Source: Candidatus Endomicrobiellum cubanum (lineage in GTDB: Bacteria; Elusimicrobiota; Endomicrobiia; Endomicrobiales; Endomicrobiaceae). From it: a stretch of 64,000 bases of DNA. The notes beneath the pieces were generated by a model, which was not told the DNA's origin, searched no databases, and saw nothing but the letters and a program-made list of their open reading frames with translations. The stretch lies in NCBI GenBank assembly GCA_031269735.1, contig JAISYS010000008.1, forward strand, positions 16 through 64,015, in the 5' to 3' direction. A program made the position numbers and the translations under genes. Of this stretch, positions 9,811 to 63,085 are shown in pieces. Every line of letters starts with the position of its first letter. Position 1 is the first letter of the stretch.

Positions 9811-10000
9811 GCTTTTAGAGAATTCTTTAAGGTAAAGTAATATAAGCAATCAAATATATGTTTTATAATTTTTTATTTAAAGATTTAAAATATTACATAT
9901 CTGAACAACGTTGTTTTTTAATAGTTTTTTATAAGACGTTCGGAAGATAATATAAACGAACGTCTGTTGTTTTGTACGCATCTGTTTTAATAGATTTTAT

Positions 10001-10019
10001 AAGGTTTTTAGATAGACCC
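10001..10019 (+). repeat. Family-1 intergenic repeat, right-end motif only (aaggtttttagatagaccc)
   Basis: Matches the right ends of copies at 13197-13215, 21122-39, 38893-907 and 26489-503. Lies in an unusual 240-bp rplO-secY gap. Confidence 0.5.
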
Positions 10020-10049
10020 ATAAATCCAAATGATAACAGGGATAAAGAT

Positions 10050-11393: not shown

Positions 11394-11395
11394 TT

Positions 11396-11570
11396 GGGCT
11401 AGTCTTTAAATTTGTACTTCCTTATGCGGTGGCTCATATATTTTAATCATATGCTTCGCCGTCGCAAGCGTTGTCTAAATTTAAAATTCTGCGCTTTGAG
11501 ATAGAGAGTTTTTGTAGAAATGTGGGTTTACGTTTTGTCAAAACGAGTGTTGCCTAAATTTAAAAGTGTT
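11396..11570 (-). repeat. Family-1 intergenic repeat, diverged/expanded copy (secY-adk spacer)
   Basis: gggctagtctttaaa...ccttatgcgg...cttcgccgtcgcaagcgtt...ttttgtcaaaa aligns by eye with the 26808-26945 copy. Boundaries are uncertain. Confidence 0.4.
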
Positions 11571-11587
11571 AAAAATACAAGGAAAAA

Positions 11588-12291: not shown

Positions 12292-13077
12292 GTGTTTTTA
12301 AAAAATCTTAATATCGAGTTAAAATCGGCAAGAGAAATTGAAAAAATGAAAATTGCCGGTAAAGTTGTAGGCGAAATTTTAGAGAAGCTTTCTGAAATAA
12401 TAAAGCCTGACATAGCAACTAAAGATATAGATATATTTGTAGAAAAATATATAAAGTCATCAAAAATGAAGCCAGCTTTTTTAGGGCAAAAAGGTATAAG
12501 ATATCCTTTTCCGGCTTCAGCTTGTGTGTCTATAAATGACGAAGTTGTACATGGGATTCCAAATGTTTCTCGTGTGCTTAAAGAGGGCGATATTGTTTCT
12601 GTAGATATTGGCGTTATTTATGAAGGATATTATGGAGACGGAGCAAAAACTTACGCAGTCGGTAAAATTTCCGATACCGCATCCAAACTTCTTAAAGTTA
12701 CGGAAATATCTTTAGAAAAAGGCATTGAGCAGGTGTTGATAGGCAACAGACTTGGTGATATTTCTTGGGCAGTGCAAAATGCAGTAGAAAGTGAAGGTTT
12801 TTCTGTTGTTCGGGATTTTGTTGGACATGGTATAGGTAGATCTTTACATGAAGATCCTCAAATTCCAAATTACGGGAAGGCAGAAACTGGTGTAAAGCTT
12901 ATGGCTGGTATGGTTTTGGCAATTGAGCCTATGGTTAATGTAGGAAGTCATGAAGTTGTTATGTTAGACGATGGCTGGACTGTTGTTACAAAAGATGGCA
13001 GTTTAAGTGCTCATTTTGAGCACACAATTGCTATAACAGAACATGGTTATGAAATTTTGACAGGGTGTTTTTCTTAA
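12292..13077 (+). CDS. map: Methionine aminopeptidase type I
   Basis: 261 aa, GTG start, ...VVHGIP...DIGV...GHGIG...EHT metal-ligand pattern. Confidence 0.95.
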   Translation: MFLKNLNIELKSAREIEKMKIAGKVVGEILEKLSEIIKPDIATKDIDIFVEKYIKSSKMKPAFLGQKGIRYPFPASACVSINDEVVHGIPNVSRVLKEGDIVSVDIGVIYEGYYGDGAKTYAVGKISDTASKLLKVTEISLEKGIEQVLIGNRLGDISWAVQNAVESEGFSVVRDFVGHGIGRSLHEDPQIPNYGKAETGVKLMAGMVLAIEPMVNVGSHEVVMLDDGWTVVTKDGSLSAHFEHTIAITEHGYEILTGCFS

Positions 13078-13078
13078 A

Positions 13079-13215
13079 GCCTCTAATTCGTATGATTGAT
13101 GTGAACTTTTTGACAAGGCAATGCAAAAATATAGGACTTATTGTGCAATATTTTTTAACGTAGCAGTGTCTGAAAAGGCTCAGTAAGTATACGTGTTAAG
13201 GTTTTTAAAGAGACC
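13079..13215 (+). repeat. Family-1 intergenic repeat, full-length copy (map-infA spacer)
   Basis: 137 bp. Contains gcctctaa...gtatgattgatgtgaactttttgacaaggcaatgcaaaaat...ttttttaacgtagc...cagtaagt...taaggtttttaaagagacc. Aligns with copies at 21016, 45948 and the reverse complement of 26808. Confidence 0.7.
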
Positions 13216-13228
13216 TCGAGGGTATAAA

Positions 13229-14140: not shown

Positions 14141-14217
14141 TTTTTAAGTTTTTTGGAATAAAAAATAATGGGTTTCTCTAAAAATTTTAATTGTAGATAA
14201 TAAAATACGGAGGAAGT

Positions 14218-19222: not shown

Positions 19223-21007
19223 ATGGTATGGCAAAAGAAAGATAAGTTTTCATATGAAATTTTTCTTGCTAAACACAAGGTAATCCTTGTGTTTTTTATG
19301 TTTCTGTTCCTGTCTCTGTCATTACGTCTTTTTTATTTGCAAATTATAAATGGTAGTAAATATAAAAATATTTCAGAATATCAAAAAATTCATAATACTA
19401 AAGAATGTGCCAAGAGAGGTGTTATATATTCAGCTGATGGGCAAATACTTGCAGAAAGTAAAAATTCCTATGCTGTATTGTATTATCCTTGTCCAGGAAA
19501 TCAAAAGCCTTCAGAACAAATTTTATTGGAATTGAGTAAAATTTTGCAAAAAGAAATTAAACCTTCCAATAGTCTTTTTTCTAAATATGGAAGAAAAGTT
19601 ATGGTTCTTGTAGAAAATTTAACTCTTAATGAGGTATTTAAAATTCAAGAGAAGAAGTTTAAACTAAAAGGAATTACTATAACAAAAGCCTCTAAACGTT
19701 TATATCATTTTTCTAAAGAAACTAGCCATGTTATAGGTTATATAAGCCAAATACAAGCAAATGAAATGAAACATTTATCTGGAGCAGGTTATAAGTTAGG
19801 CGACTATATCGGTAGAGGTGGCATAGAACAGTATTATGATGAATATCTTCAAGGGAAAGATGGTGGTTGGCAAATAGAAGTAAACTCTAAAGGTGATAAA
19901 GTAAGGATGATAAAATATGTTCCACCTGAGACGGGTAATAGTATTTATTCTACTATAGATTTGAAACTTCAATATTGTGCATATAATGCTTTAAAAAATA
20001 GTGATACAGGTAAAGGTGCTGTTGTTGTTTTGGACGTAAAAAGTGGGAATGTAAAAGCTTTAGTTTCATGTCCTGGCTTTGACTCAAACAAAGTATTAAA
20101 TAACAGAATCTGTGAGTATATAAAAGATGGTAAGTTGCCACTGTTTAATAGAGCACTGCAAGCTTTATACCCACCAGGCTCCACGTTTAAATTTGTTACT
20201 TTTGCAGCTGCAATGGATTTGTTAGACATTAATCCTTATGAGACTATAGATTGTAAAGGCAAATTTGAGTTAGGTGATAGAATATATGTCTGTTATCATA
20301 AAACTGCTCACGGCAGATTGAATTTAATTTCAGCAATGGCAGTTTCGTGTAATGTTTATTTTTATAATTTAGGTTTAAAATTAGGTATAAGAAACTTAGA
20401 AGTGTATACTAGAAAATTTCTGTTTGGACAAAAGACAGGAATAGATTTGCCAAACGAAAAACAAGGTTTTATACCAACCCCGGAATGGAAAAAATCAAAA
20501 TTTAAAGTTCCTTGGTTGCAAGGTGACACATTAATTTTTGCAATAGGACAGGGTGCTATTTGCGTAACGCCTCTACAAATGGCACACATTATGGCTACTA
20601 TTGCAAAAAGAGGATTTATTTGTAAACCTTATGTAGTTGATAAGATTGTAGATTTAAACGGTAACGAAATTTACAAACATGAAAATTCTCAAATTAAAGA
20701 TCGTATAGAACTTTCTAATAGGACTTGGGAATTTTTACATAAATCTCTTTTAGAAGTTGTTGAAAATGGAACAGCAAGAAGATGCAAAATCCCAGGTATA
20801 AAAATATCTGGCAAAACAGGTACTGCGCAAAATCCACACAAAAAGGATCATTCTTGGTTTATTTCATACGCTCCATCAGATAATCCAGAAATTGCAGTAG
20901 CAGTTATTGTTGAACATGGTGGCAGTGGAGGATTAAACGCTGTGCCGATAGCAAAAAGAATATACGAGACTTATTTTGGAATTAGTGCAAGTTCAGTTTT
21001 AGATTAA
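19223..21007 (+). CDS. mrdA: Penicillin-binding protein 2 (elongasome transpeptidase)
   Basis: 594 aa, N-terminal TM. SxxK (STFK), SxN (SCN) and KTG (KTGTAQ) motifs. Confidence 0.93.
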   Translation: MVWQKKDKFSYEIFLAKHKVILVFFMFLFLSLSLRLFYLQIINGSKYKNISEYQKIHNTKECAKRGVIYSADGQILAESKNSYAVLYYPCPGNQKPSEQILLELSKILQKEIKPSNSLFSKYGRKVMVLVENLTLNEVFKIQEKKFKLKGITITKASKRLYHFSKETSHVIGYISQIQANEMKHLSGAGYKLGDYIGRGGIEQYYDEYLQGKDGGWQIEVNSKGDKVRMIKYVPPETGNSIYSTIDLKLQYCAYNALKNSDTGKGAVVVLDVKSGNVKALVSCPGFDSNKVLNNRICEYIKDGKLPLFNRALQALYPPGSTFKFVTFAAAMDLLDINPYETIDCKGKFELGDRIYVCYHKTAHGRLNLISAMAVSCNVYFYNLGLKLGIRNLEVYTRKFLFGQKTGIDLPNEKQGFIPTPEWKKSKFKVPWLQGDTLIFAIGQGAICVTPLQMAHIMATIAKRGFICKPYVVDKIVDLNGNEIYKHENSQIKDRIELSNRTWEFLHKSLLEVVENGTARRCKIPGIKISGKTGTAQNPHKKDHSWFISYAPSDNPEIAVAVIVEHGGSGGLNAVPIAKRIYETYFGISASSVLD

Positions 21008-21015
21008 TAAAAGCA

Positions 21016-21139
21016 GCCCTCTTTAAAGCGTATAATTGCTATAAATCTTTTGACAAAACAAGGCAAAAAGCAAGGTTTATATCGTATGTTTTACCTTGCA
21101 GAAGCGCCAAAAATAGCACTGTAAGGTTTAGACAGGACC
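21016..21139 (+). repeat. Family-1 intergenic repeat, full-length copy (mrdA-rodA spacer)
   Basis: 124 bp: gccctctttaaagcgtataattgc...cttttgacaaaacaaggcaaaaagc...gcgccaaaaatagcactgtaaggtttagacaggacc. Confidence 0.7.
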
Positions 21140-22508: not shown

Positions 22509-22568
22509 ACTAATTTTGCCTTTTCTAAAAATGAAGTTATTCTCTAGACAAATGCATATTAATTTACA

Positions 22569-22640
22569 TAGAACCTGACTTGACCAGTAAAAGCTGAAAA
22601 GAAAGGAATTATTCATAAAAAAGAAAGATAAGGGGAACCT
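22569..22640 (-). repeat. Family-2 inverted-repeat element, copy with one decayed end
   Basis: tagaacctgacttgaccagtaaaagc...ataaaaaagaaag...ggggaacc. Its reverse complement aligns with copies at 31263 and 39456; the far TIR is lost. Confidence 0.6.
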
Positions 22641-25758: not shown

Positions 25759-26464
25759 ATGAAAAGTAAGCAATTTGCCGTTATTGGGCTAGGTACTTTT
25801 GGATATAATGTTGCAATAGATCTTGCAAACAAGGGTATTCAAGTTTTAGCTATTGATATTAATTAATACAGAGATAGTTAACAGAATAAGTCAATTGGTC
25901 ACACAAGCTTTAGTTGTAGATGCAACAGATGAAAAGGCCATGTTAGAAGCAGGTGTTGCAGATTGTGACAGTGTAGTAATATCTATAGGGGAAAGTATAG
26001 AAACAAGCATTTTAGCGACATTAATAGTTAAAGAACTTGGGATTAAGAATGTTATTGTTAAGTCTGCAAGTAACTGGCATTCAAAGGTTGCTGTAAAACT
26101 TGGAGCAAGTACTGTTGTCTATCCAGAACTTGAAATGGCAAAAAAACTTGTAGAAAGCATAGTAACGCCAAATATTTTAGAACAAATAAAGCTTTCTAAA
26201 GATTATAATTTGGCTGAGTTGGTAGCTCCAAAATCTGTGTGTGGCAAAACTATAAAAGATTCAAATATAAGAACCAATTACGGTATAAATATTATTGCTA
26301 TACGAAAGAGAGTGCCCATAATTAACGATGATGGTCAAAGTGATATAAAAGAGGAAGTTAATATGGTACCTGGGCCCTCTGACGAAATCAATCAAAACGA
26401 TGTTTTATTTGTTGTTGGATCAGAAAAATCTTTAGCAAAAATAAAAAAGGAGGGGTCTCTCTAA
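25759..26464 (+). pseudogene. ktrA: KtrA/TrkA RCK-domain subunit, disrupted by a +1 frameshift at about 25860-25866
   Basis: ATG 25759 gives MKSKQFAVIGLGTFGYNVAIDLANKGIQVLAIDIN-stop (taa 25864-66). The rest (TEIVNRISQLVTQALVVDATDE...) continues in the next frame from about 25853. The GxGxxG NAD fold is on the 35-aa fragment only. Confidence 0.8.
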
Positions 26465-26503
26465 AAACTATAAGGATGTGTGCTAGCTTTTTTACAGAGA
26501 CCC
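26453..26503. repeat. Family-1 short hairpin form (TIR-loop-TIR)
   Basis: gggtctctctaaaaa (26453-67) versus tttttacagagaccc (26489-503): 15-bp inverted repeat with 1 mismatch. The ktrA stop codon lies inside the left arm. Confidence 0.8.
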
Positions 26504-26512
26504 GTATAATGG

Positions 26513-26806
26513 ATGAACACAGAAAATTTAAAGACAAATCTTCCTTTGGAAGCAACTTATATGGAACTTGGTAAATTTTATTTTTTAAACAATAAGTATG
26601 ATGAAGCAGTTTCGGAATTTAAAAAGGTTTTAGAAATAAATCCTGCAAATGCAGAAGCCTATTATAATATAGGACTTATTAAAGAAAGTTCTAATTTAAT
26701 AGATGATGCAAAAGAGATGTACTCAAAAGCTTTATCAATTAATTCTGAGTACAAGATAGTAAAAGATAGGCTCGATAAACTTATTGGCATAGAAAATAAG
26801 AGTTAA
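26513..26806 (+). CDS. Small TPR-repeat protein
   Basis: 97 aa, two TPR-like units (YMELGKFYFLNNKYDEAVSEFKKVLEINPANAEAYYNIGLI...). Confidence 0.75.
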   Translation: MNTENLKTNLPLEATYMELGKFYFLNNKYDEAVSEFKKVLEINPANAEAYYNIGLIKESSNLIDDAKEMYSKALSINSEYKIVKDRLDKLIGIENKS

Positions 26807-26807
26807 A

Positions 26808-26945
26808 GACTCTCTCTAAAACCCTTACTGTGCCTTTTTCGCCACTATTGCGTTAAAAACTTGTGCTTATGCACGATAGTTCTGCATTTTTGCCATGCAT
26901 TACCAAAAATTCACAAGAATTATACGCAAGTTTTTAGAGAAATCC
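26808..26945 (-). repeat. Family-1 intergenic repeat, full-length copy, opposite orientation
   Basis: 138 bp, gactctctctaaaa...tttttagagaaatcc termini. Its reverse complement aligns along its length with copies at 13079, 21016 and 45948. Confidence 0.75.
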
Positions 26946-26963
26946 TTAAAATGAGGTTTGTAG

Positions 26964-28005: not shown

Positions 28006-28835
28006 ATGCTAGATTTAAATAATAAAGTTGCTCTTATAACGGGAGTGAATAATCCTCAAGGAATAGGAGCCAGCACTGCAATTAGTTTAGCAAAAGCAGG
28101 TGCAAAAGTTGTTTGTGTTTATAAAGAAGTTGAAATTCCATTTTAATGAAAATGAAACTAGAGAGAATGGTTTTAATAAATATCATAAGGCTTTATCATG
28201 TGATGCAGCTGAAGTTGAAAAGCAAATAAAGCAAATAAAGCAAATAAAGCAAATAAAGAAAATTACTAATAATTACTTGATTATTGAAAGAGACAGTGTA
28301 GAAAAAGATAATATAACTGATATATTTAACATTATAGAGTAACGTTTTGGCAATGTTGAAATTCTTGTAAACAATGCAGCCATGTGTAGTGAAAAATGAC
28401 ACAATATTATCCATTAATGACAAGACGATAGATGAAATATTTAATGTTAACGTAAAAGCAGTCTTTCTTATGACGCAAGAGTTTGTAAAAAGAAGTAATG
28501 GTTACGGAAGAGTTATAAATTTAAGTACAGATTCAGCGCAAATTTTTGCTGGCCAAATTGCTTATGGAGCAAGTAAATCTGCTGTAGAAGCACTTAGTAG
28601 AAGCATTGAAATGGAGGTTGGCAAATTAGGTATAACAGTTAATACAGTTGCGCAAGGGCCAACTCAAACAGGCTGGATAGATAAAGATCTTGAAAAGTCC
28701 GTTTTGCCTTTAATTCCAACAGGTAAACTTATACAACCACAAGACATAGCAGACGTCATTTTGTTTTTAGCGTCACAGCAAGCCGCGCAAGTTACAGGTC
28801 AAGTTATAAAAGTTTCTGGTGGTCATGCTCTTTAA
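28006..28835 (+). pseudogene. Short-chain dehydrogenase/reductase (SDR) gene, broken into three frames plus an in-frame stop
   Basis: The gene is spread over three frames. Frame A: MLDLNNKVALITGVNNPQGIGASTAISLAKAGAKVV...stop at 28144-46. Frame B: NENETREN...QIKQIKQIKQIK...FNIIE-stop(28340-42)-RFGNVEILVNNAAMC. Frame C: ...IDEIFNVNVKAVF...YGASKSAVE...VSGGHAL. Confidence 0.85.
28222..28257 (+). repeat. 9-bp tandem repeat (GCAAATAAA)x4 inside the SDR pseudogene
   Basis: Direct reading; encodes (QIK)4 in the local frame. Confidence 0.95.
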
Positions 28836-28847
28836 AAAGGATAAAAA

Positions 28848-31263: not shown

Positions 31264-31354
31264 GAAACCTGACTTGACCTTTTGGGTTTCCCCTTTCCTC
31301 CTTTTTATGAGTGCTTTTTCCTTTTTTTCGTTAAAGCGGTCAAGTCAGGTTAGA
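31263..31354 (+). repeat. Family-2 inverted-repeat element, full copy
   Basis: aacctgacttgacc (31266-79) and ggtcaagtcaggtt (31338-51) are perfect 14-bp TIRs. The interior is pyrimidine-rich: gggtttcccctttcctccttttt... Confidence 0.8.
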
Positions 31355-31567: not shown

Positions 31568-31848
31568 ACCAATCTCCTTTTTGAATGTTTTTTTGCCGTT
31601 AATAGTCCCAAACGGCATAGCCAAAATATTGAAATAAAAATATTTATGGAATTTTGTTTGATGTTTTGATACGAAATAGTTAAAAATTGATTTAATAGAG
31701 AAGAGAGGAATCTCTTAAACAGCAAGGAAAATCTTGTAACATAGACAGCTTCTTACAAAAAGCTACAATTGAATTGTATATAAAAAGAAATGATTTCACA
31801 TGGGCTCTCTAGACCCCTACCTCAGGAACCCTTATACGGACTTGACCT

Positions 31849-38361: not shown

Positions 38362-38385
38362 AGGCCCTCTCTAAAGGATAGGTAT

Positions 38386-38869: not shown

Positions 38870-38907
38870 GGGTCTGTCTAAAAATTTTAAAGTTTTTAGA
38901 CAGACCC
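38870..38907. repeat. Family-1 short hairpin form, perfect 15-bp inverted repeat
   Basis: gggtctgtctaaaaa (38870-84) / tttttagacagaccc (38893-907), loop ttttaaag. A solitary half-site ggccctctctaaagg lies at 38363-77 on the other side of the deaminase gene. Confidence 0.85.
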
Positions 38908-39363: not shown

Positions 39364-39376
39364 GCAAGATAAAATA

Positions 39377-39411
39377 AAAAAGGACGTACTTTTAAAAGTA
39401 CGTCCTTTTTT
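39377..39411. terminator. Rho-independent (bidirectional-looking) terminator
   Basis: aaaaa-ggacgtac-ttttaaaa-gtacgtcc-tttttt. Confidence 0.85.
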
Positions 39412-39455
39412 ATTAGCTAATTTTTATTCCAAAAGGTCTCAAAAAGAGATTATTT

Positions 39456-39521
39456 TAGAACCTGACTTGACCATTTGGGTTCCCTCAATCTTCCCTTTTT
39501 CCTTTTACTGGTCAAGTTAGG
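39456..39521 (+). repeat. Family-2 inverted-repeat element (left copy of composite)
   Basis: tagaacctgacttgacc atttgggttccctcaatcttccctttttccttttact ggtcaagttagg. Confidence 0.75.
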
Positions 39522-39563
39522 AGAATGCTTTCCGTCTATTTTAAAGTTAAGCTTAAAAATAGT

Positions 39564-39592: not shown

Positions 39593-39612
39593 TGTGCATA
39601 GAGGTGGTTGAG

Positions 39613-40830
39613 ATGAGGAAACGATATATTTATCGACACTTACAGAATGTGTTAAAAGATAAAAGATTTGCTAAAGGTGTTATTGCCGTAACTGGGGCAA
39701 GACAAACAGGAAAAAGCACTTTGCTTGAAAATTTAGTGCCAAACATTCCTAATTTAACGCTTGATGATTTAAGGTTGCGATTTTTAGCAAAAAAAGACCC
39801 TGCTTTATTTATAGCTGATAATAAAGCGCCTATTTTTATAGATGAAGTGCAACGAGCACCTGAAATTTTGTCATATATTAAAATTGAAGTTGACAAAGCA
39901 AAAGAAAAAAATATGTATTACCTAACCGGCTCTCAAAAATTTAATATGATGAAAGATATGGCAGAAAGTTTGGCAGGTAGAGTATCAATATTTGAGTTGC
40001 TAGGCCTATCTATGCGTGAACTTCAAAATGATAAATTTAAAGAACCATTCTTGCCAACGAGTAGCTATAAAGCTCGTAGGAGAGAAACAGCAACTCCTAT
40101 TTGTGATATTTGGGATTTAATACACAAAGGTAGTATGCCACAGATGTATACAGAAGAGTTAGATTGGAAAAAGTTCTATGCAGATTATATGAACACGTAT
40201 TTAGAGAGAGATGTTAGTCAACTCGCTCAAGTGGGCGACTCTCTGAAGTTTATAAAATTTATGGAAGTTTTAGCAGCACGTATAAGCAATATGTTAAATT
40301 TAAATGATGTATGCCGCGATGTTGGCATTTCTCATCCTACTGCAGAGCACTGGCTATCTATTTTGCAAAGTTCAAATATAATCTATTTACTTCGTCCATA
40401 TTATAATAACAGAACAAATAGGGCAATTAAAACGCCAAAGTTATATTTTTTAGATACGGGACTCGCCGCTTATCTTACCCATTGGGATACAAAAGATGTT
40501 TTAAAAAGCGGAGCAAAAAAAGGTGACTTTTTAGAAAACTTTGTTATATGCGAAATATTGAAAAGTTATTATAATGCAGGATTAGAGCCCAATAATTTAT
40601 ATTACTACCGAGATAAAAATCAAAGAGAAATTGATTTAATAATTGAAATAGGTGGAGTTTTATACCCGACTGAAATAAAATCAAAATCCAATCCTACTAA
40701 GCAAGATATACCTGCGTTTGAATTTTTAAGTGCTATTGCTAAAGTTGACCAAGGCGCGGTTATCTGTCTTTGCGATAAACCATTCGCAATTTACTCAGGC
40801 GTTTATGCTCTTCCTATTTGGTATATTTGA
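39613..40830 (+). CDS. AAA-type ATPase of the AAA_14 + DUF4143 (COG1373-like) family
   Basis: ATG 39613 after AGGTGG. Walker A GARQTGKST, Walker B IFIDEVQ; C-terminal restriction-endonuclease-like part (REIDLIIE). Confidence 0.8.
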   Translation: MRKRYIYRHLQNVLKDKRFAKGVIAVTGARQTGKSTLLENLVPNIPNLTLDDLRLRFLAKKDPALFIADNKAPIFIDEVQRAPEILSYIKIEVDKAKEKNMYYLTGSQKFNMMKDMAESLAGRVSIFELLGLSMRELQNDKFKEPFLPTSSYKARRRETATPICDIWDLIHKGSMPQMYTEELDWKKFYADYMNTYLERDVSQLAQVGDSLKFIKFMEVLAARISNMLNLNDVCRDVGISHPTAEHWLSILQSSNIIYLLRPYYNNRTNRAIKTPKLYFLDTGLAAYLTHWDTKDVLKSGAKKGDFLENFVICEILKSYYNAGLEPNNLYYYRDKNQREIDLIIEIGGVLYPTEIKSKSNPTKQDIPAFEFLSAIAKVDQGAVICLCDKPFAIYSGVYALPIWYI

Positions 40831-40849
40831 CTTGAAAATAAATACTAAT

Positions 40850-40907
40850 ACCTCACTTGAGCATTAGGGTTCCCCCATTCCTCCTTTTTTTCGTTAAAAC
40901 GGTCAAG
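40850..40907 (+). repeat. Family-2 inverted-repeat element (right copy of composite)
   Basis: acctcacttgagc attagggttcccccattcctcctttttttcgttaaaac ggtcaagtcaggttcta. Confidence 0.75.
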
Positions 40908-40934
40908 TCAGGTTCTAATTAGACTAGTCAATAC

Positions 40935-45264: not shown

Positions 45265-45984
45265 ATGCGCTCAAAAAGAGTGCTTTTAAAACTGTCTGGA
45301 GAATCCTTTTGCGATGGGAGTTCTTCTATTAGTCAAAAGTGTCTTTTAAGAACTGTAGAAGAAATAAAGCATGCCATTTCTAGAGGTGTAGAGCTTTCCA
45401 TAGTTGTTGGAGCTGGAAACATTTGGAGAGGAGTTGGAAAATTTATAGAAAGAGTTACTGCAGACAAAATGGGAATGCTTGCTACGGTTATGAATGCGCT
45501 AGCTTTAAATGAAGCATTACTAAAAGCCAAAATAAAAGCTATAGTTTTATGTGCAAGTGGTGTAAGTAGTTTTGTTGAAGATTTTAGTGTAGAGAAGGCT
45601 ATAAATTATATTGAGCTCGGTTATGTTGTTATATTTGCTGGTGGCACAGGAAATCCATATTTTACGACAGATACTACAGCTGCTTTGAGGGCTGCAGAAA
45701 TAAAAACGGACGTATTACTTAAAGCTACTCAAGTTGACGGTGTTTATAGCGCAGATCCAAAAAAAGATAAGGGTGCAATAAAGTATGATTTTTTAACTTT
45801 TAAAGAAGCAATAAATAAGCAGTTAAAAGTCATGGATAGTCAAGCATTTTCTTTATGTGAGCAAACAAATATTTCTATTATTGTTTTTGATTTTTACAAA
45901 GACGGAAATTTAAAAAAAGTTTTATGTGGTGAAAAAATAGGTACAAGCATCTCTAAAAACTCTAATGAGTATAAATTGCCGTGA
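45265..45984 (+). CDS. pyrH: UMP kinase
   Basis: 239 aa, VLLKLSGESF...GGTGNPYFTTDTTAALRA. The last ~10 codons are Family-1 repeat sequence. Confidence 0.95.
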   Translation: MRSKRVLLKLSGESFCDGSSSISQKCLLRTVEEIKHAISRGVELSIVVGAGNIWRGVGKFIERVTADKMGMLATVMNALALNEALLKAKIKAIVLCASGVSSFVEDFSVEKAINYIELGYVVIFAGGTGNPYFTTDTTAALRAAEIKTDVLLKATQVDGVYSADPKKDKGAIKYDFLTFKEAINKQLKVMDSQAFSLCEQTNISIIVFDFYKDGNLKKVLCGEKIGTSISKNSNEYKLP

Positions 45985-46082
45985 ATTTTTTGACAAAGCA
46001 ATGCAAAAAACGTAGGGTTTATCTATATAAATACAAGTTTTTAAATGCAGCATTGTCTAAAAAAGTGTGGTAAGGATAGGCA
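45948..46082 (+). repeat. Family-1 intergenic repeat, copy overlapping the pyrH 3' end
   Basis: gcatctctaaaaac...gagtataaattgccgtgaattttttgacaaagcaatgcaaaaaa...gtttttaaatgcagc...gtggtaagg; right terminus decayed. Confidence 0.65.
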
Positions 46083-46114
46083 TTATAGTGCTTGTATAAT
46101 AGTGGAGGGTTAAA

Positions 46115-61548: not shown

Positions 61549-63085
61549 ATGAAAATAAAACTTAAAATTAGTTTAAGGATGGAGCTTGTTGTTCTAGTCG
61601 TTGCGATTGTTATATTTGTCGTGGCAGTTTTTTCTTACTTTTTTATTTCTACATATAAATCTTATTTTGTACAAACTTTTCAATTAAATACCAAAAGACA
61701 AACTTATAAACTTGCTGATTCAATTGTTAATAGTGTATCTTTAAAAAGAAATGATATTATAGAAGATTATATCGGCAATACAATACGAGAAAGTGACATT
61801 GTTTGTGTTGAAGTTTACGATAAAAACTTTAAGAAACTTGCAAGTTGTAAGATTTTAAATAAAACGTTAGAAGATATTTTAAATAATCACAAAATTAATG
61901 AGAAGGCTGATATTCTTTTTGGAAAGTCAAGAGCCATAGGATATTTTTATAAGTATAAAGGAAAAACTAGTGCTTTTGAGTATATAGCTCCTGTAATTTT
62001 TTATAGTAGTGGAAATACAGATGGCGAAATTATAGCTTTTGTAAGAGTTATTTCATCTTTTAAAAATATTGATAAAGCTTTAACAAAAATAATTAAAAAT
62101 ACTCTTTCTCTAGCAGTTTATGTTATTTTGATTAGCATAGTAGTATCTTTTTTTATTACAAGATTGTTTGTTGAGCCAATAAATAAAGTTATTAGTATTA
62201 CTAGACAAATATCACAGGGCGATTTTTCTAATAAAGTCCCCTTATTTAAAGAGATAGAATTGAGAGTTTTAGCTATATCTGTTAATATGATGTCTAGTCA
62301 TTTAAAGAGAGTTTTAGATGTATTGCACAGTGAAAAAGAAAGTTTATTAAATGCTCAAGAAAACTTAGAAATAAAAAACAAATCAAATAAAGAACTTGTT
62401 TTGAAAGAACGAAAAATGCATATAAAGTTAATAAAGGAAGAGCGTTTTTATACAATCGGTAGACTAGCAGGTTCTCTAGCACACGAAATTAAGAATCCTT
62501 TAACTAGCTTTAAAAATATTATTTATTTTATTTCAAAGACGGAAAATTTTAAAAATGAAGAAGCAAAAAAAATGTTTAATATGCTTACAGATAATGTGAC
62601 AAGAATTAATAATATTTTGACAGAGCTTTTGGATTATTCTGAACTGAATAGTTTAAACAAAACTCAAAATTGTATAGATGAATTAATTAATAAAGTCATT
62701 AAAACTATATATACCCAACAATATAAGGTTAAAAATGGATTTAAAGCATATTGCTGCTTTAACTGACAAAGAAAGTTTTAGAAAAGTAATAAGACATTTA
62801 ATTATAAATTCTGTAGATGCAATGCCATTTGGTGGTAATATCTTTATTTCTGCAGATAAAGTAGAAAATAAATTAGAGTTAAGAATAAGAGATACTGGTT
62901 TTGGTATTGATAGTGATATAATAAAGAATATTTATGAACCTTTATATACAACAAAAGTGAAAGGCGTAGGATTAGGATTGGCCATAGTAAAAGAAATTAT
63001 AGAAATGCATAAAGGCACAATCCTTTTAAATAGCAAAGTTGGTAAAGGTACGGAGTTTATTCTACATATTCCAGGTGTTTTGTAG
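61549..63085 (+). pseudogene. Membrane HAMP sensor histidine kinase split by a frameshift at an A5 run (62731-62735)
   Basis: ORF 1 (to 62766): 2 TM + periplasmic domain + HAMP + H-box LAHEIKNPL. ORF 2 (from 62735, next frame): HATPase_c (NSVDAMPFGGN, DTGFGI, GVGLGLAIV). Removing one A restores ...YKVKMDLKHIAALTDKE... Confidence 0.8.

What the first reader, a model, noticed from the sequence alone, without database searches (positions are those of the whole stretch)
26453..26945. Family-1: a 125-138-bp intergenic repeat with GGGTCTCTCTAAAA-type inverted termini, plus short hairpin derivatives
Full-length copies:
- 13079-13215 (+)
- 21016-21139 (+)
- 45948-46082 (+)
- 26808-26945 (-)
- a diverged copy at about 11396-11570 (-)
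The full-length copies share several blocks: ...ctct(c/t)taaa..gcgTATAATt...gtgaa(t/c)tttttgacaa(a/g)gcaatgcaaaaa...tttttaacg.a...ag.a.(a/t)gtaagg(g)ttt(tt)aga.ag(a)cc.
Short TIR-loop-TIR forms lie at 26453-26503 and 38870-38907; the latter is a perfect 15-bp stem. Solitary ends lie at 10001-10019 and 38363-38377, and possibly at 31803-31817.
Both orientations occur relative to the uniformly + strand genes. This argues against a dedicated sRNA or terminator and for a MITE/Correia-like element.
Single genes are bracketed by copies: the TPR gene by 26453 and 26808, and the dCMP deaminase gene by 38363 and 38870.
The ends carry TATAAT-like boxes (gcgtataat; cccgtataat) and could modulate neighbouring expression.
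Basis: seen in the sequence. Interest (0 to 1): 0.65.

Follow-up and report, generated by a model that had tools for sequence, protein, structure and literature searches.

The report
Small mobile palindromic repeat in Endomicrobiellum
The repeats are a real family of small, non-coding, hairpin-forming mobile DNA elements (MITE-like) that inserted into tight gene junctions of a termite-gut endosymbiont; this is an ordinary kind of element, but apparently undescribed in this bacterial group.

Summary
The repeat family is real. Four full-length copies (about 125-155 nt), two short end-loop-end hairpins and one or two solitary ends carry GGGTCTCTCTAAAAAC-type inverted termini. A fifth, best-preserved copy (164 nt, about 30-nt inverted ends) lies at a different place in an 84%-identical relative.

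The window comes from a strain about 98.4% identical to Candidatus Endomicrobiellum cubanum, a flagellate endosymbiont from termite guts.

The decisive result is that six insertion sites could be compared with relatives, and all six are empty there. At those sites the neighbouring genes overlap or sit 1-14 nt apart (map|infA, mrdA|rodA, trkA|TPR, TPR|pheS, pyrH|frr, comEB|next gene). Three insertions rewrote the upstream gene's C-terminus and supply its stop codon. One copy has an exact 5-bp duplication (TTAAA), and one hairpin has a 4/5 match.

There is no Rfam match, no covariation, no U-tract and no consistent promoter.

Verdict: this is a decaying, lineage-specific MITE-like element whose transposase is unknown. 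Its "diverged copy" at 11396-11570, the 31803 end and the TATAAT-promoter idea do not. It is a new member of a known kind, of modest interest.

The parts
26808..26945 (-). Full-length copy D (138 nt) between the TPR gene and pheS. It is flanked by an exact 5-bp direct duplication, TTAAA, at 26803-26807 and 26946-26950.
   Evidence: nhmmer E=4e-31. Relatives L039 and L041 have a 14-nt TPR|pheS spacer with a single TTAAA. As RNA it folds at -39.5 kcal/mol, z = -3.9. The 98.5%-identical strain L002 keeps it, with 1 SNP.
26453..26503 (.). Short form (51 nt): terminus, loop, terminus. It is inserted into the last codons of trkA, and its left terminus supplies the trkA stop codon (TAA at 26462-26464).
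   Evidence: Termini match the consensus at 0 and 2 mismatches. In L039, L040 and L041, trkA and the TPR gene overlap by 4 nt and the hairpin is absent. The trkA C-terminus changed from ...KKDNG* to ...KKEGSL* (read from the sequences).
13063..13216 (+). Full-length copy A between map and infA. The left terminus is degenerate (GGGTGTTTTTCTTAAAGCC...). The element supplies the last codons and the stop codon of map.
   Evidence: nhmmer E=1e-36. L036, L037 and L038 have a 1-nt map|infA spacer.
21015..21139 (+). Full-length copy B (125 nt, with deletions inside both arms) between mrdA (PBP2) and rodA.
   Evidence: nhmmer E=1e-25. In L037 and L038, mrdA and rodA overlap by 4 nt.
45945..46098 (+). 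Full-length copy C between pyrH and frr. The right terminus is heavily mutated. The element encodes the last 8 extra codons and the stop codon of pyrH.
   Evidence: nhmmer E=1e-38. L042 and L043 have a 1-nt pyrH|frr spacer. PyrH is 239 aa here, against 230-235 aa (mostly 231-232) in all but two of the 119 listed relatives.
38870..38907 (.). Short form (38 nt) with a perfect 17-bp stem, between the dCMP deaminase gene and the next gene. Its flanks are TTAAA and GTAAA.
   Evidence: Folds at -25 kcal/mol, z = -8.95. In L042 the two genes overlap by 4 nt and the hairpin is absent; TAAA occurs once there.
10004..10019 (-). Solitary terminus (15 of 16 bases match) 30 nt upstream of the real secY start (10050).
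   Evidence: The motif is absent from the same spacer in L036-L038.
14170..14185 (+). Solitary terminus (14 of 16 bases match) in the rpsM-rpsK spacer.
   Evidence: The window spacer is about 20 nt longer than in L036 at exactly this spot.
38363..38377 (+). Possible remnant of a terminus (GGCCCTCTCTAAAGG), about 13 nt extra relative to L042. Weak.
   Evidence: Junction comparison. It does not reach 3 mismatches or fewer to the 16-mer.

Best explanation
Family-1 is a lineage-specific, non-autonomous mobile DNA element of the MITE type.

Anatomy. An intact unit is about 160 nt and non-coding. It is a long imperfect palindrome. Its inverted termini start GGG(G)TCTSTCTAAAAAC and extend to about 30 nt in the best copy. 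It has an asymmetric core, TTTTGACAAAGCAATGCAAAAA, on one arm.

Shown.
- Copies were inserted after this lineage split from relatives of about 77-90% nucleotide identity.
- They landed at the stop-codon/start-codon junctions of tightly packed, co-directional housekeeping operons.
- In three cases the element now supplies the upstream gene's new C-terminal codons and stop codon. The terminus contains TAA, and its complement contains TAG.
- In all cases the Shine-Dalgarno sequence of the downstream gene is left intact.

Inferred.
- A transposase encoded elsewhere recognised the termini and mobilised the element in trans. That transposase may since have been lost from this reduced endosymbiont genome.
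- Integration favoured AT-rich TTAAA-like sequence and made a 5-bp duplication.
- Only insertions in the few dispensable nucleotides between genes survived selection.
- The copies have since decayed neutrally. They are now 57-75% identical to each other.
- Internal deletions produced the 38-51-nt end-loop-end hairpins and the solitary ends.
- Because the copies lie inside operons, they are probably co-transcribed and form mRNA hairpins. No regulatory role is shown.
For: FAMILY HOMOLOGY
- Motif enrichments.
- Pairwise blastn between copies.

INSERTION POLYMORPHISM: 6 of 6 testable sites are empty in relatives
- map|infA: 1-nt spacer in L036, L037 and L038.
- mrdA|rodA: 4-nt overlap in L037 and L038.
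- trkA|TPR: 4-nt overlap; TPR|pheS: 14-nt spacer in L039 and L041.
- pyrH|frr: 1-nt spacer in L042 and L043; comEB|next gene: 4-nt overlap in L042.

OTHER SUPPORT
- A copy sits at a different locus, at a synteny break, in the closest relative L036.
- The terminus motif occurs 10 times in the 64-kb window, 2 times in the 21 kb of L036, and about 0 times in 98 kb of more distant relatives.
- Target duplication: exact TTAAA/TTAAA at D, and TTAAA/GTAAA at the 38870 hairpin, against single copies in the empty sites.
- The element is palindromic. The HMM also hits the reverse strand of L036, A and C, and alifold returns one long hairpin.
- It has no coding capacity: the longest stop-free stretch is 47 codons or fewer.
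- Neutral behaviour: between 98.4-98.5%-identical strains each element differs by 1 SNP, similar to the background.
Against: - No transposase gene and no longer element with the same termini was found. The window has none (and the Pfam columns).
- Plasmid and phage collections have no similar DNA.
- The duplication is clean at only one site and 4/5 at a second. A, B, C, the 26453 hairpin and the L036 copy show none that I can defend.
- No two copies are near-identical (57-75% identity), so recent activity is not shown.
- Empty sites come from other species-level lineages (77-90% identity), not from the same species. The two same-species strains both carry the two elements that could be compared.
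- Genome-wide copy number is unknown. The one-shot pattern scans of the genome and metagenome collections returned only chance matches and nothing from this organism.
Confidence: 0.8

Rival explanations
1. REP/REPIN-like palindromes moved as single-stranded hairpins by a RAYT or IS200/IS605-type HUH (Y1) transposase. On this reading the short 38-51-nt hairpins are the REP-like units and the roughly 150-nt copies are the inverted doublets (REPIN-like).
For: - The whole element is an imperfect palindrome, and the short forms are simple hairpins.
- Most copies lack a convincing target duplication.
- The copies are extragenic and lie inside operons.
Against: - Neither the GTAG nor the CGTC tag that characterises the two large REP superfamilies (PMC3733652, abstract) is present at or next to the hairpin ends. 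This was read directly.
- The stems are AT-rich, not GC-rich.
- D has an exact 5-bp duplication.
- No Y1 transposase gene appears in the window or in about 120 kb of relatives (Pfam columns).
- The density of a few copies per 64 kb is modest for REPs.
Confidence: 0.1
2. A family of functional RNA elements: small RNA genes, intercistronic processing or stabilising hairpins, or transcription terminators/attenuators selected at these operon junctions.
For: - The copies sit inside co-directional operons and would be transcribed.
- Stable predicted hairpins: z = -2.0 to -3.9 for three of the four full copies (B: -1.07, not distinguishable from shuffles) and -8.95 for the 38870 hairpin.
- The best-preserved copies contain TTGACA-N17-TAGGGT, a weak sigma-70-like arrangement (read).
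Against: - The elements are absent from the same junctions in related genomes, where the genes overlap.
- Both orientations occur.
- There is no Rfam match at the copies, even at E<=1.
- The alifold covariation term is unfavourable (+1.96). One pair shows a compensatory change and many pairs are broken.
- None of the hairpins passes the terminator scan, because none is followed by a T-run.
- Promoter-like hits are at shuffle level and are not shared between copies.
Confidence: 0.06
3. Chance similarity of AT-rich intergenic sequence; there is no real family.
For: The genome is AT-rich (about 32% GC). The weakest listed members (11396-11570, 31803, 38363) are indeed not distinguishable from chance.
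Against: - Motif counts are 10-300 times the expectation, with 0 of 100 shuffles reaching them.
- Independent HMM and blastn E-values range from 1e-7 to 1e-30.
Confidence: 0.01

Closest known systems
Bacterial MITEs in general (e.g. those reviewed by Delihas, Genome Biol Evol 2011, PMC3184786)
   Same: - Size of 40-165 nt, with terminal inverted repeats and no coding capacity.
- Multiple copies in both orientations, located in intergenic DNA.
- Insertion polymorphism between related genomes.
- A short target duplication at the cleanest copy.
- Decay into shorter derivatives.
   Different: No cognate insertion sequence with the same termini has been identified. The duplication is seen cleanly at only one copy. 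The copies are old (57-75% identical).
Correia elements (CREE/NEMIS) of Neisseria
   Same: - About 100-155 nt, with inverted ends.
- Inserted close to genes and co-transcribed.
- Full-length and internally deleted forms coexist.
(From my knowledge of the family.)
   Different: - The sequences are unrelated.
- Correia elements duplicate TA, carry an IHF site and have functional outward promoters. Here the one clean duplication is 5 bp (TTAAA) and no consistent promoter is found.
- The phylum is different (Elusimicrobiota).
ERIC/IRU elements of enterobacteria, and Rickettsia palindromic elements (RPE)
   Same: - Like ERIC, these are imperfect palindromes of about 127 nt in transcribed intergenic regions of operons, in either orientation.
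- Like RPE, they occur in an intracellular bacterium and are tolerated when they alter the ends of protein-coding genes. Here the C-termini of map, trkA and pyrH are rewritten.
   Different: - There is no sequence similarity.
- RPEs insert in frame inside genes and are translated throughout. Here only a few codons are read before the element's own stop codon.
Tn3-family-derived miniature elements (TIMEs)
   Same: The termini begin GGGG in the best copy, and one copy has an exact 5-bp AT-rich duplication. Both are hallmarks of Tn3-family transposition. This is a resemblance recalled from memory, so it is a lead and not a test.
   Different: - The inverted ends are about 16-30 nt, not about 38 nt.
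- The conserved inner TAAG of Tn3-family ends is not evident.
- No Tn3-type transposase or resolution site was found.
REP/REPIN elements with RAYT transposases
   Same: Short extragenic hairpins, plus longer inverted doublets of the same unit.
   Different: There is no GTAG/CGTC tag. The stems are AT-rich. One copy has a 5-bp duplication. No RAYT gene was seen.

Membership tests
MITE (generic class) | Small size (about 50-500 bp) and no coding capacity | tested here: met
   Copies are 38-164 nt. The longest stop-free stretch is 47 codons or fewer and the copies share no ORF.
MITE (generic class) | Terminal inverted repeats shared by the copies | tested here: met
   GGGTCTSTCTAAAAAC occurs at both ends of D, of both hairpins and of the L036 copy. 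The ends extend to about 30 nt in L036.
MITE (generic class) | Several dispersed copies in one genome | tested here: met
   The 64-kb window holds 4 full copies, 2 short forms and 1-2 solitary ends. The genome-wide number could not be obtained.
MITE (generic class) | Presence/absence at orthologous sites (filled versus empty) | tested here: met
   6 of 6 testable sites are empty in relatives. The caveat is that the relatives are other species-level lineages.
MITE (generic class) | Target-site duplication of fixed length | tested here: inconclusive
   TTAAA/TTAAA is exact at D. The 38870 hairpin has TTAAA/GTAAA. No defensible duplication is seen at A, B, C, the 26453 hairpin or L036.
MITE (generic class) | An autonomous element with the same termini encoding the transposase | not testable with these tools
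   None is present in the window or in the fetched loci.
Correia element (Neisseria) | Family-specific 26-bp inverted ends, TA duplication, IHF site | tested here: not met
   The termini differ in sequence, and the clean duplication is 5 bp. The Correia consensus itself is recalled from knowledge and was not aligned here.
REP/REPIN-RAYT | GTAG or CGTC tetranucleotide tag at one end of the palindrome (PMC3733652) | tested here: not met
   Neither tag nor its complement lies at or next to the ends of the hairpins at 26453-26503 and 38870-38907 (sequences).
REP/REPIN-RAYT | A RAYT (Y1 HUH) gene in the genome, flanked by REPs | not testable with these tools
   None is present in the 64-kb window or in about 120 kb of relatives.
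Tn3-derived miniature element (TIME) | About 38-bp ends of the form GGGG...TAAG, and an invariable 5-bp duplication | tested here: inconclusive
   GGGG is at the termini of the L036 copy, and a 5-bp duplication is at D. The ends are shorter, there is no inner TAAG, and the duplication is not seen at the other copies.
Known structured RNA family (Rfam 15) | Covariance-model match | tested here: not met
   At gathering thresholds only a tRNA matches. At E<=1 none of the six matches overlaps a copy.
Intrinsic terminator | GC-rich hairpin followed by a U-tract | tested here: not met
   No element hairpin appears among the terminator-like sites. The tails read GTATAATGG and GTAAAATAA.

The most novel reading that the evidence does not exclude
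The elements may be more than passive junk. Their termini carry stop codons in both orientations, and every surviving insertion sits exactly where two genes were translationally coupled (overlapping ATGA, or a 1-nt spacer). The family could therefore be targeted to stop-codon/TTAAA contexts. After insertion it could act as an intercistronic mRNA hairpin that uncouples translation or sets processing sites in essential operons of a genome-reduced endosymbiont. It might be mobilised by an enzyme that is not a classical partner IS, since no duplication is seen at most copies.
Probability: 0.1. Interest if true: 0.6.

Novelty: new member of a known kind. Interest (0 to 1): 0.35.

Why it matters
This would be, as far as the searched literature shows, the first MITE-like family described in Endomicrobia/Elusimicrobiota. 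No paper combines 'Endomicrobium' with 'miniature inverted-repeat'. The 2024 comparative genomics paper that named the genus predicted IS elements only with ISsaga, and its main text never mentions such repeats.

It gives a dated marker of mobile-DNA activity in a lineage that is undergoing endosymbiotic genome reduction. It explains unusually long spacers and altered C-termini in otherwise conserved operons (map, trkA, pyrH). It also flags a likely recombination substrate, because one copy sits at a synteny break in the relative.

For annotation, it warns against calling these hairpins terminators or sRNAs. Conceptually it is an ordinary finding.

Tried and rejected
1. Scan of genome contigs with the core motif. 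It returned 6 single hits in unrelated taxa, which are chance matches.

2. Scan of metagenome contigs with the core motif. It returned 27 loci. Twenty-four of them belong to one ORF-poor repeat family of about 40% GC that is replicated across sister samples. That family shares only the selected 22-mer: HMM matches are confined to model positions about 40-77, with the same scores as the chance singletons. I rejected it as unrelated. Neither scan returned the source organism, so it is apparently not searchable there.

3. Scan of viral contigs with the terminus. Two chance hits.

4. blastn of the best copy against plasmids and phages. Nothing.

5. The region 11396-11570 as a diverged copy. Rejected.

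6. Promoter reading of gcgTATAAT and of TTGACA-N17-TAGGGT. There is no consistent -35/-10 pair across copies. Only copy C gives one scan hit, on the minus strand.

7. Sigma-54 and integron attC readings of the core and termini. The spacing and consensus do not fit (by inspection).

8. Composite-transposon reading of the bracketed TPR and comEB genes. Rejected, because both genes are in the same positions in relatives that lack the elements.

9. Three look-ups meant to extend the window's own contig or fetch the sister strain failed, because the exact products are not indexed.

10. My early note that the window is contig Ga0466723_085453 was wrong. That contig is a 98.3%-identical sister strain.
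Full report
ORGANISM AND SETTING

The window has about 32% GC and a strong positive GC skew, and nearly all genes are on the + strand. The best matches to its SecY, PheS and PyrH are all Endomicrobium/Endomicrobiellum MAGs.

Exact look-ups place the window's proteins on a 70,768-nt contig. Near-identical variants on a 73,497-nt contig carry the name Candidatus Endomicrobiellum cubanum. That contig (L001) and a Logan contig (L002) are 98.3-98.5% identical to the window.

Ca. E. cubanum is known only from two termite-gut MAGs of about 1.3 Mb and 31% GC (supplement of PMC11257099). The paper describes Endomicrobia as comprising free-living forms and flagellate endosymbionts. So the window comes from a genome-reduced endosymbiont lineage.

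Yes, for the main members.
- The asymmetric core TTTTGACAARGCAATGCAAAAA occurs three times at 2 mismatches or fewer, against 0.01 expected.
- The terminus GGGTCTCTCTAAAA occurs nine times at 2 mismatches or fewer, against 0.48 expected.
- The 16-mer version occurs ten times against 0.77 expected.
- A profile built only from the four window copies finds a fifth copy in relative L036 at E=1e-29.
- blastn of that copy against the window gives E from 7e-30 down to 1e-7 for C, A, D and B.

Aligned together, the five copies show 72% mean column identity and 57-75% pairwise identity.

The L036 copy (20873-21036) is the best preserved. It is 164 nt long. Its ends, GGGGTCTGTCTAAAAACCCTAATGCATATAT and the complement of ATATATGCATTAGGGTTTTTAGAGAGGCCCC, form an inverted repeat of about 30 nt. 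Its two arms remain alignable beyond that, so the profile also hits the reverse strand. The element is therefore a long imperfect palindrome with an asymmetric core.

Three listed members fail.
- The region 11396-11570 gets no profile hit on either strand, even at E<=10 with filters off. The secY-adk spacer that contains it aligns with the same spacer in three relatives. It is an ancestral spacer.
- The end at 31803-31817 does not match the terminus.
- The end at 38363-38377 is at best a 13-nt remnant.

WHAT IS IT? THE DECISIVE TEST

I fetched the orthologous regions from related Endomicrobiellum genomes, which are 77-90% identical to the window in nucleotide sequence. I compared every junction that holds a copy.

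| Copy in the window | Spacer in the window | Same junction in relatives |
|---|---|---|
| A, map\|infA | 151 nt | 1 nt in L036, L037, L038 |
| B, mrdA\|rodA | 154 nt | genes overlap by 4 nt in L037, L038 |
| Hairpin 26453, trkA\|TPR gene | 48 nt | genes overlap by 4 nt in L039, L040, L041 |
| D, TPR gene\|pheS | 157 nt | 14 nt in L039, L041 |
| C, pyrH\|frr | 130 nt | 1 nt in L042, L043 |
| Hairpin 38870, comEB\|next gene | 57 nt | genes overlap by 4 nt in L042 |

Six of six testable sites are empty. Further points agree with insertion.
- PyrH is 239 aa in the window and 230-235 aa (mostly 231-232) in all but two of the 119 listed relatives. The extra codons and the stop codon are element sequence.
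- The closest relative, L036, lacks A but carries its own copy after mrdA, at a point where synteny with the window ends.
- The terminus motif occurs 10 times in the window, twice in the 21 kb of L036, and essentially never in 98 kb from the more distant relatives.

This is the signature of lineage-specific insertions of mobile DNA. It is not the signature of a conserved regulatory RNA.

JUNCTION ANATOMY

- At D, the termini are defined by alignment to the consensus. The element spans exactly 26808-26945 and is flanked by TTAAA on both sides. The empty sites have one TTAAA. This is a clean 5-bp target duplication.
- At the 38870 hairpin, the flanks are TTAAA and GTAAA, and the empty site has one TAAA.
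- At the 26453 hairpin, at A, B and C, and at the L036 copy, I cannot defend a duplication. The divergence of the comparison genomes and decay of the termini limit this test.
- Three insertions lie inside the last codons of the upstream gene (map, trkA, pyrH). The element then supplies a few new codons and the stop codon.
- The terminus contains TAA, and its complement contains TAG.
- In every case the downstream gene keeps its Shine-Dalgarno sequence (GAGGG, GGAGG, GGTGGAGG, read directly).

IS IT A FUNCTIONAL RNA OR A PROMOTER/TERMINATOR CARRIER?

- Rfam gives only a tRNA at gathering thresholds. At E<=1 nothing overlaps a copy.
- RNAalifold returns one long hairpin, but the covariation term is unfavourable (+1.96). 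A single pair shows a compensatory change and many pairs are broken. That is the pattern expected from independent decay of a palindrome.
- None of the hairpins is followed by a T-run, and none appears in the terminator scan.
- Promoter-like sites are at shuffle level: 70 against 59.7+/-9.5, and 32 against 29.7+/-5.1. Only one falls inside a copy (C, minus strand), and no prediction is shared by the copies.
- TTGACA-N17-TAGGGT in the two best copies is a weak lead only.
- Between the 98.4%-identical strains, the hairpin and D each differ by one SNP, like the surrounding DNA.

MECHANISM, WITH SHOWN AND INFERRED STEPS SEPARATED

Shown:
- The element is a repeated, non-coding, inverted-repeat-bounded palindrome.
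- It was inserted at gene junctions after divergence from relatives.
- It sits at different loci in two related genomes.
- One copy has a 5-bp duplication.
- The copies have decayed.

Inferred:
- It was mobilised in trans by a transposase that recognises the GGG(G)TCTSTCTAAAAAC ends.
- It prefers AT-rich TTAAA-like targets.
- Purifying selection left only insertions in the few dispensable bases between genes.
- The short forms and solitary ends arose by internal deletion.

The divergence among copies (25-43%) is compatible with neutral decay since insertion, given that the flanking, mostly coding DNA already differs by 10-23% from the comparison genomes.

The transposase is unidentified. GGGG termini plus a 5-bp duplication recall Tn3-family miniature elements. 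That is a recollection, not a test, and the short ends argue against membership. An HUH (RAYT-like) route is the main rival. It lacks the GTAG/CGTC tag and any Y1 transposase gene in the DNA I could read.

LIMITS

- The one-shot scans of the genome and metagenome collections with the core motif returned only chance matches. These included a multi-copy, ORF-poor repeat from other samples that shares nothing beyond the selected 22-mer.
- The source genome could not be scanned as a whole, so copy number, a duplication logo and the search for an autonomous partner remain open.
- Three look-ups aimed at the rest of the contig or at the sister strain failed.

COMPARISON WITH KNOWN FAMILIES, AND NOVELTY

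The family behaves like a bacterial MITE. It resembles ERIC and Correia elements in size, palindromic form and intra-operon location. It resembles Rickettsia palindromic elements in being tolerated at gene ends in an intracellular bacterium. It is not a sequence member of any of them.

No paper in the searched library links Endomicrobium with MITEs. The genus-defining paper mentions only ISsaga-based IS prediction.

My verdict is a new member of a known kind. It is a solid, well-supported but ordinary finding.

Noticed in passing
window 31265-31351, 39458-39523, 40848-40914, and a half copy at 22560-22609 (-): A second, unrelated small inverted-repeat family of about 70-90 nt, with ends AACCTGACTTGACC...GGTCAAGTCAGGTT. 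Two copies flank the AAA_14/DUF4143 ATPase gene (39604-40830).
   Followed up: partly
window 28100-28840: A short-chain dehydrogenase gene is broken into fragments called as 132, 48 and 74 aa. Between the 98.5%-identical strains this stretch holds several frameshifting indels and a variable 9-nt tandem repeat, (AAATAAAGC)x3, at 28233-28259. It looks like an eroding pseudogene.
   Followed up: partly
window 61549-63085: A sensor histidine kinase is split into 405-aa and 116-aa ORFs in the window but is a single 512-aa protein in the sister strain. This is a strain-specific frameshift or an assembly error.
   Followed up: no
L036 20786-21344: In the 84%-identical relative, synteny breaks right after mrdA: rodA is replaced by a minus-strand hydF-like gene, and the family-1 copy sits at the break. 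The 90 nt before it contain CTGTAAGGATAGTTTAGTG, which resembles the right end of copy C. This suggests an element-associated rearrangement.
   Followed up: partly
window 9811-10049 and 11394-11587: The rplO-secY spacer (about 240 nt) and the secY-adk spacer (about 195 nt) are unusually long in the window and in all three relatives (156-329 nt), and they are partly alignable. They may hold a conserved leader or an older element. L038 carries an extra insertion of about 130 nt there.
   Followed up: partly
window 39373-39414: A perfect 19-bp palindrome, AATAAAAAAGGACGTACTTTTAAAAGTACGTCCTTTTTTATT, with T-runs on both strands. It looks like a bidirectional intrinsic terminator.
   Followed up: no
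L009-L035 (metagenome loci): About nine distinct copies of a conserved non-coding repeat of at least 150 nt, in ORF-poor contigs of about 40% GC, recur across five sister metagenomes. The repeat shares only the 22-mer TTTTGACAAAACAATGCAAAAA with family-1. The source organism and the nature of the repeat are unknown.
   Followed up: partly
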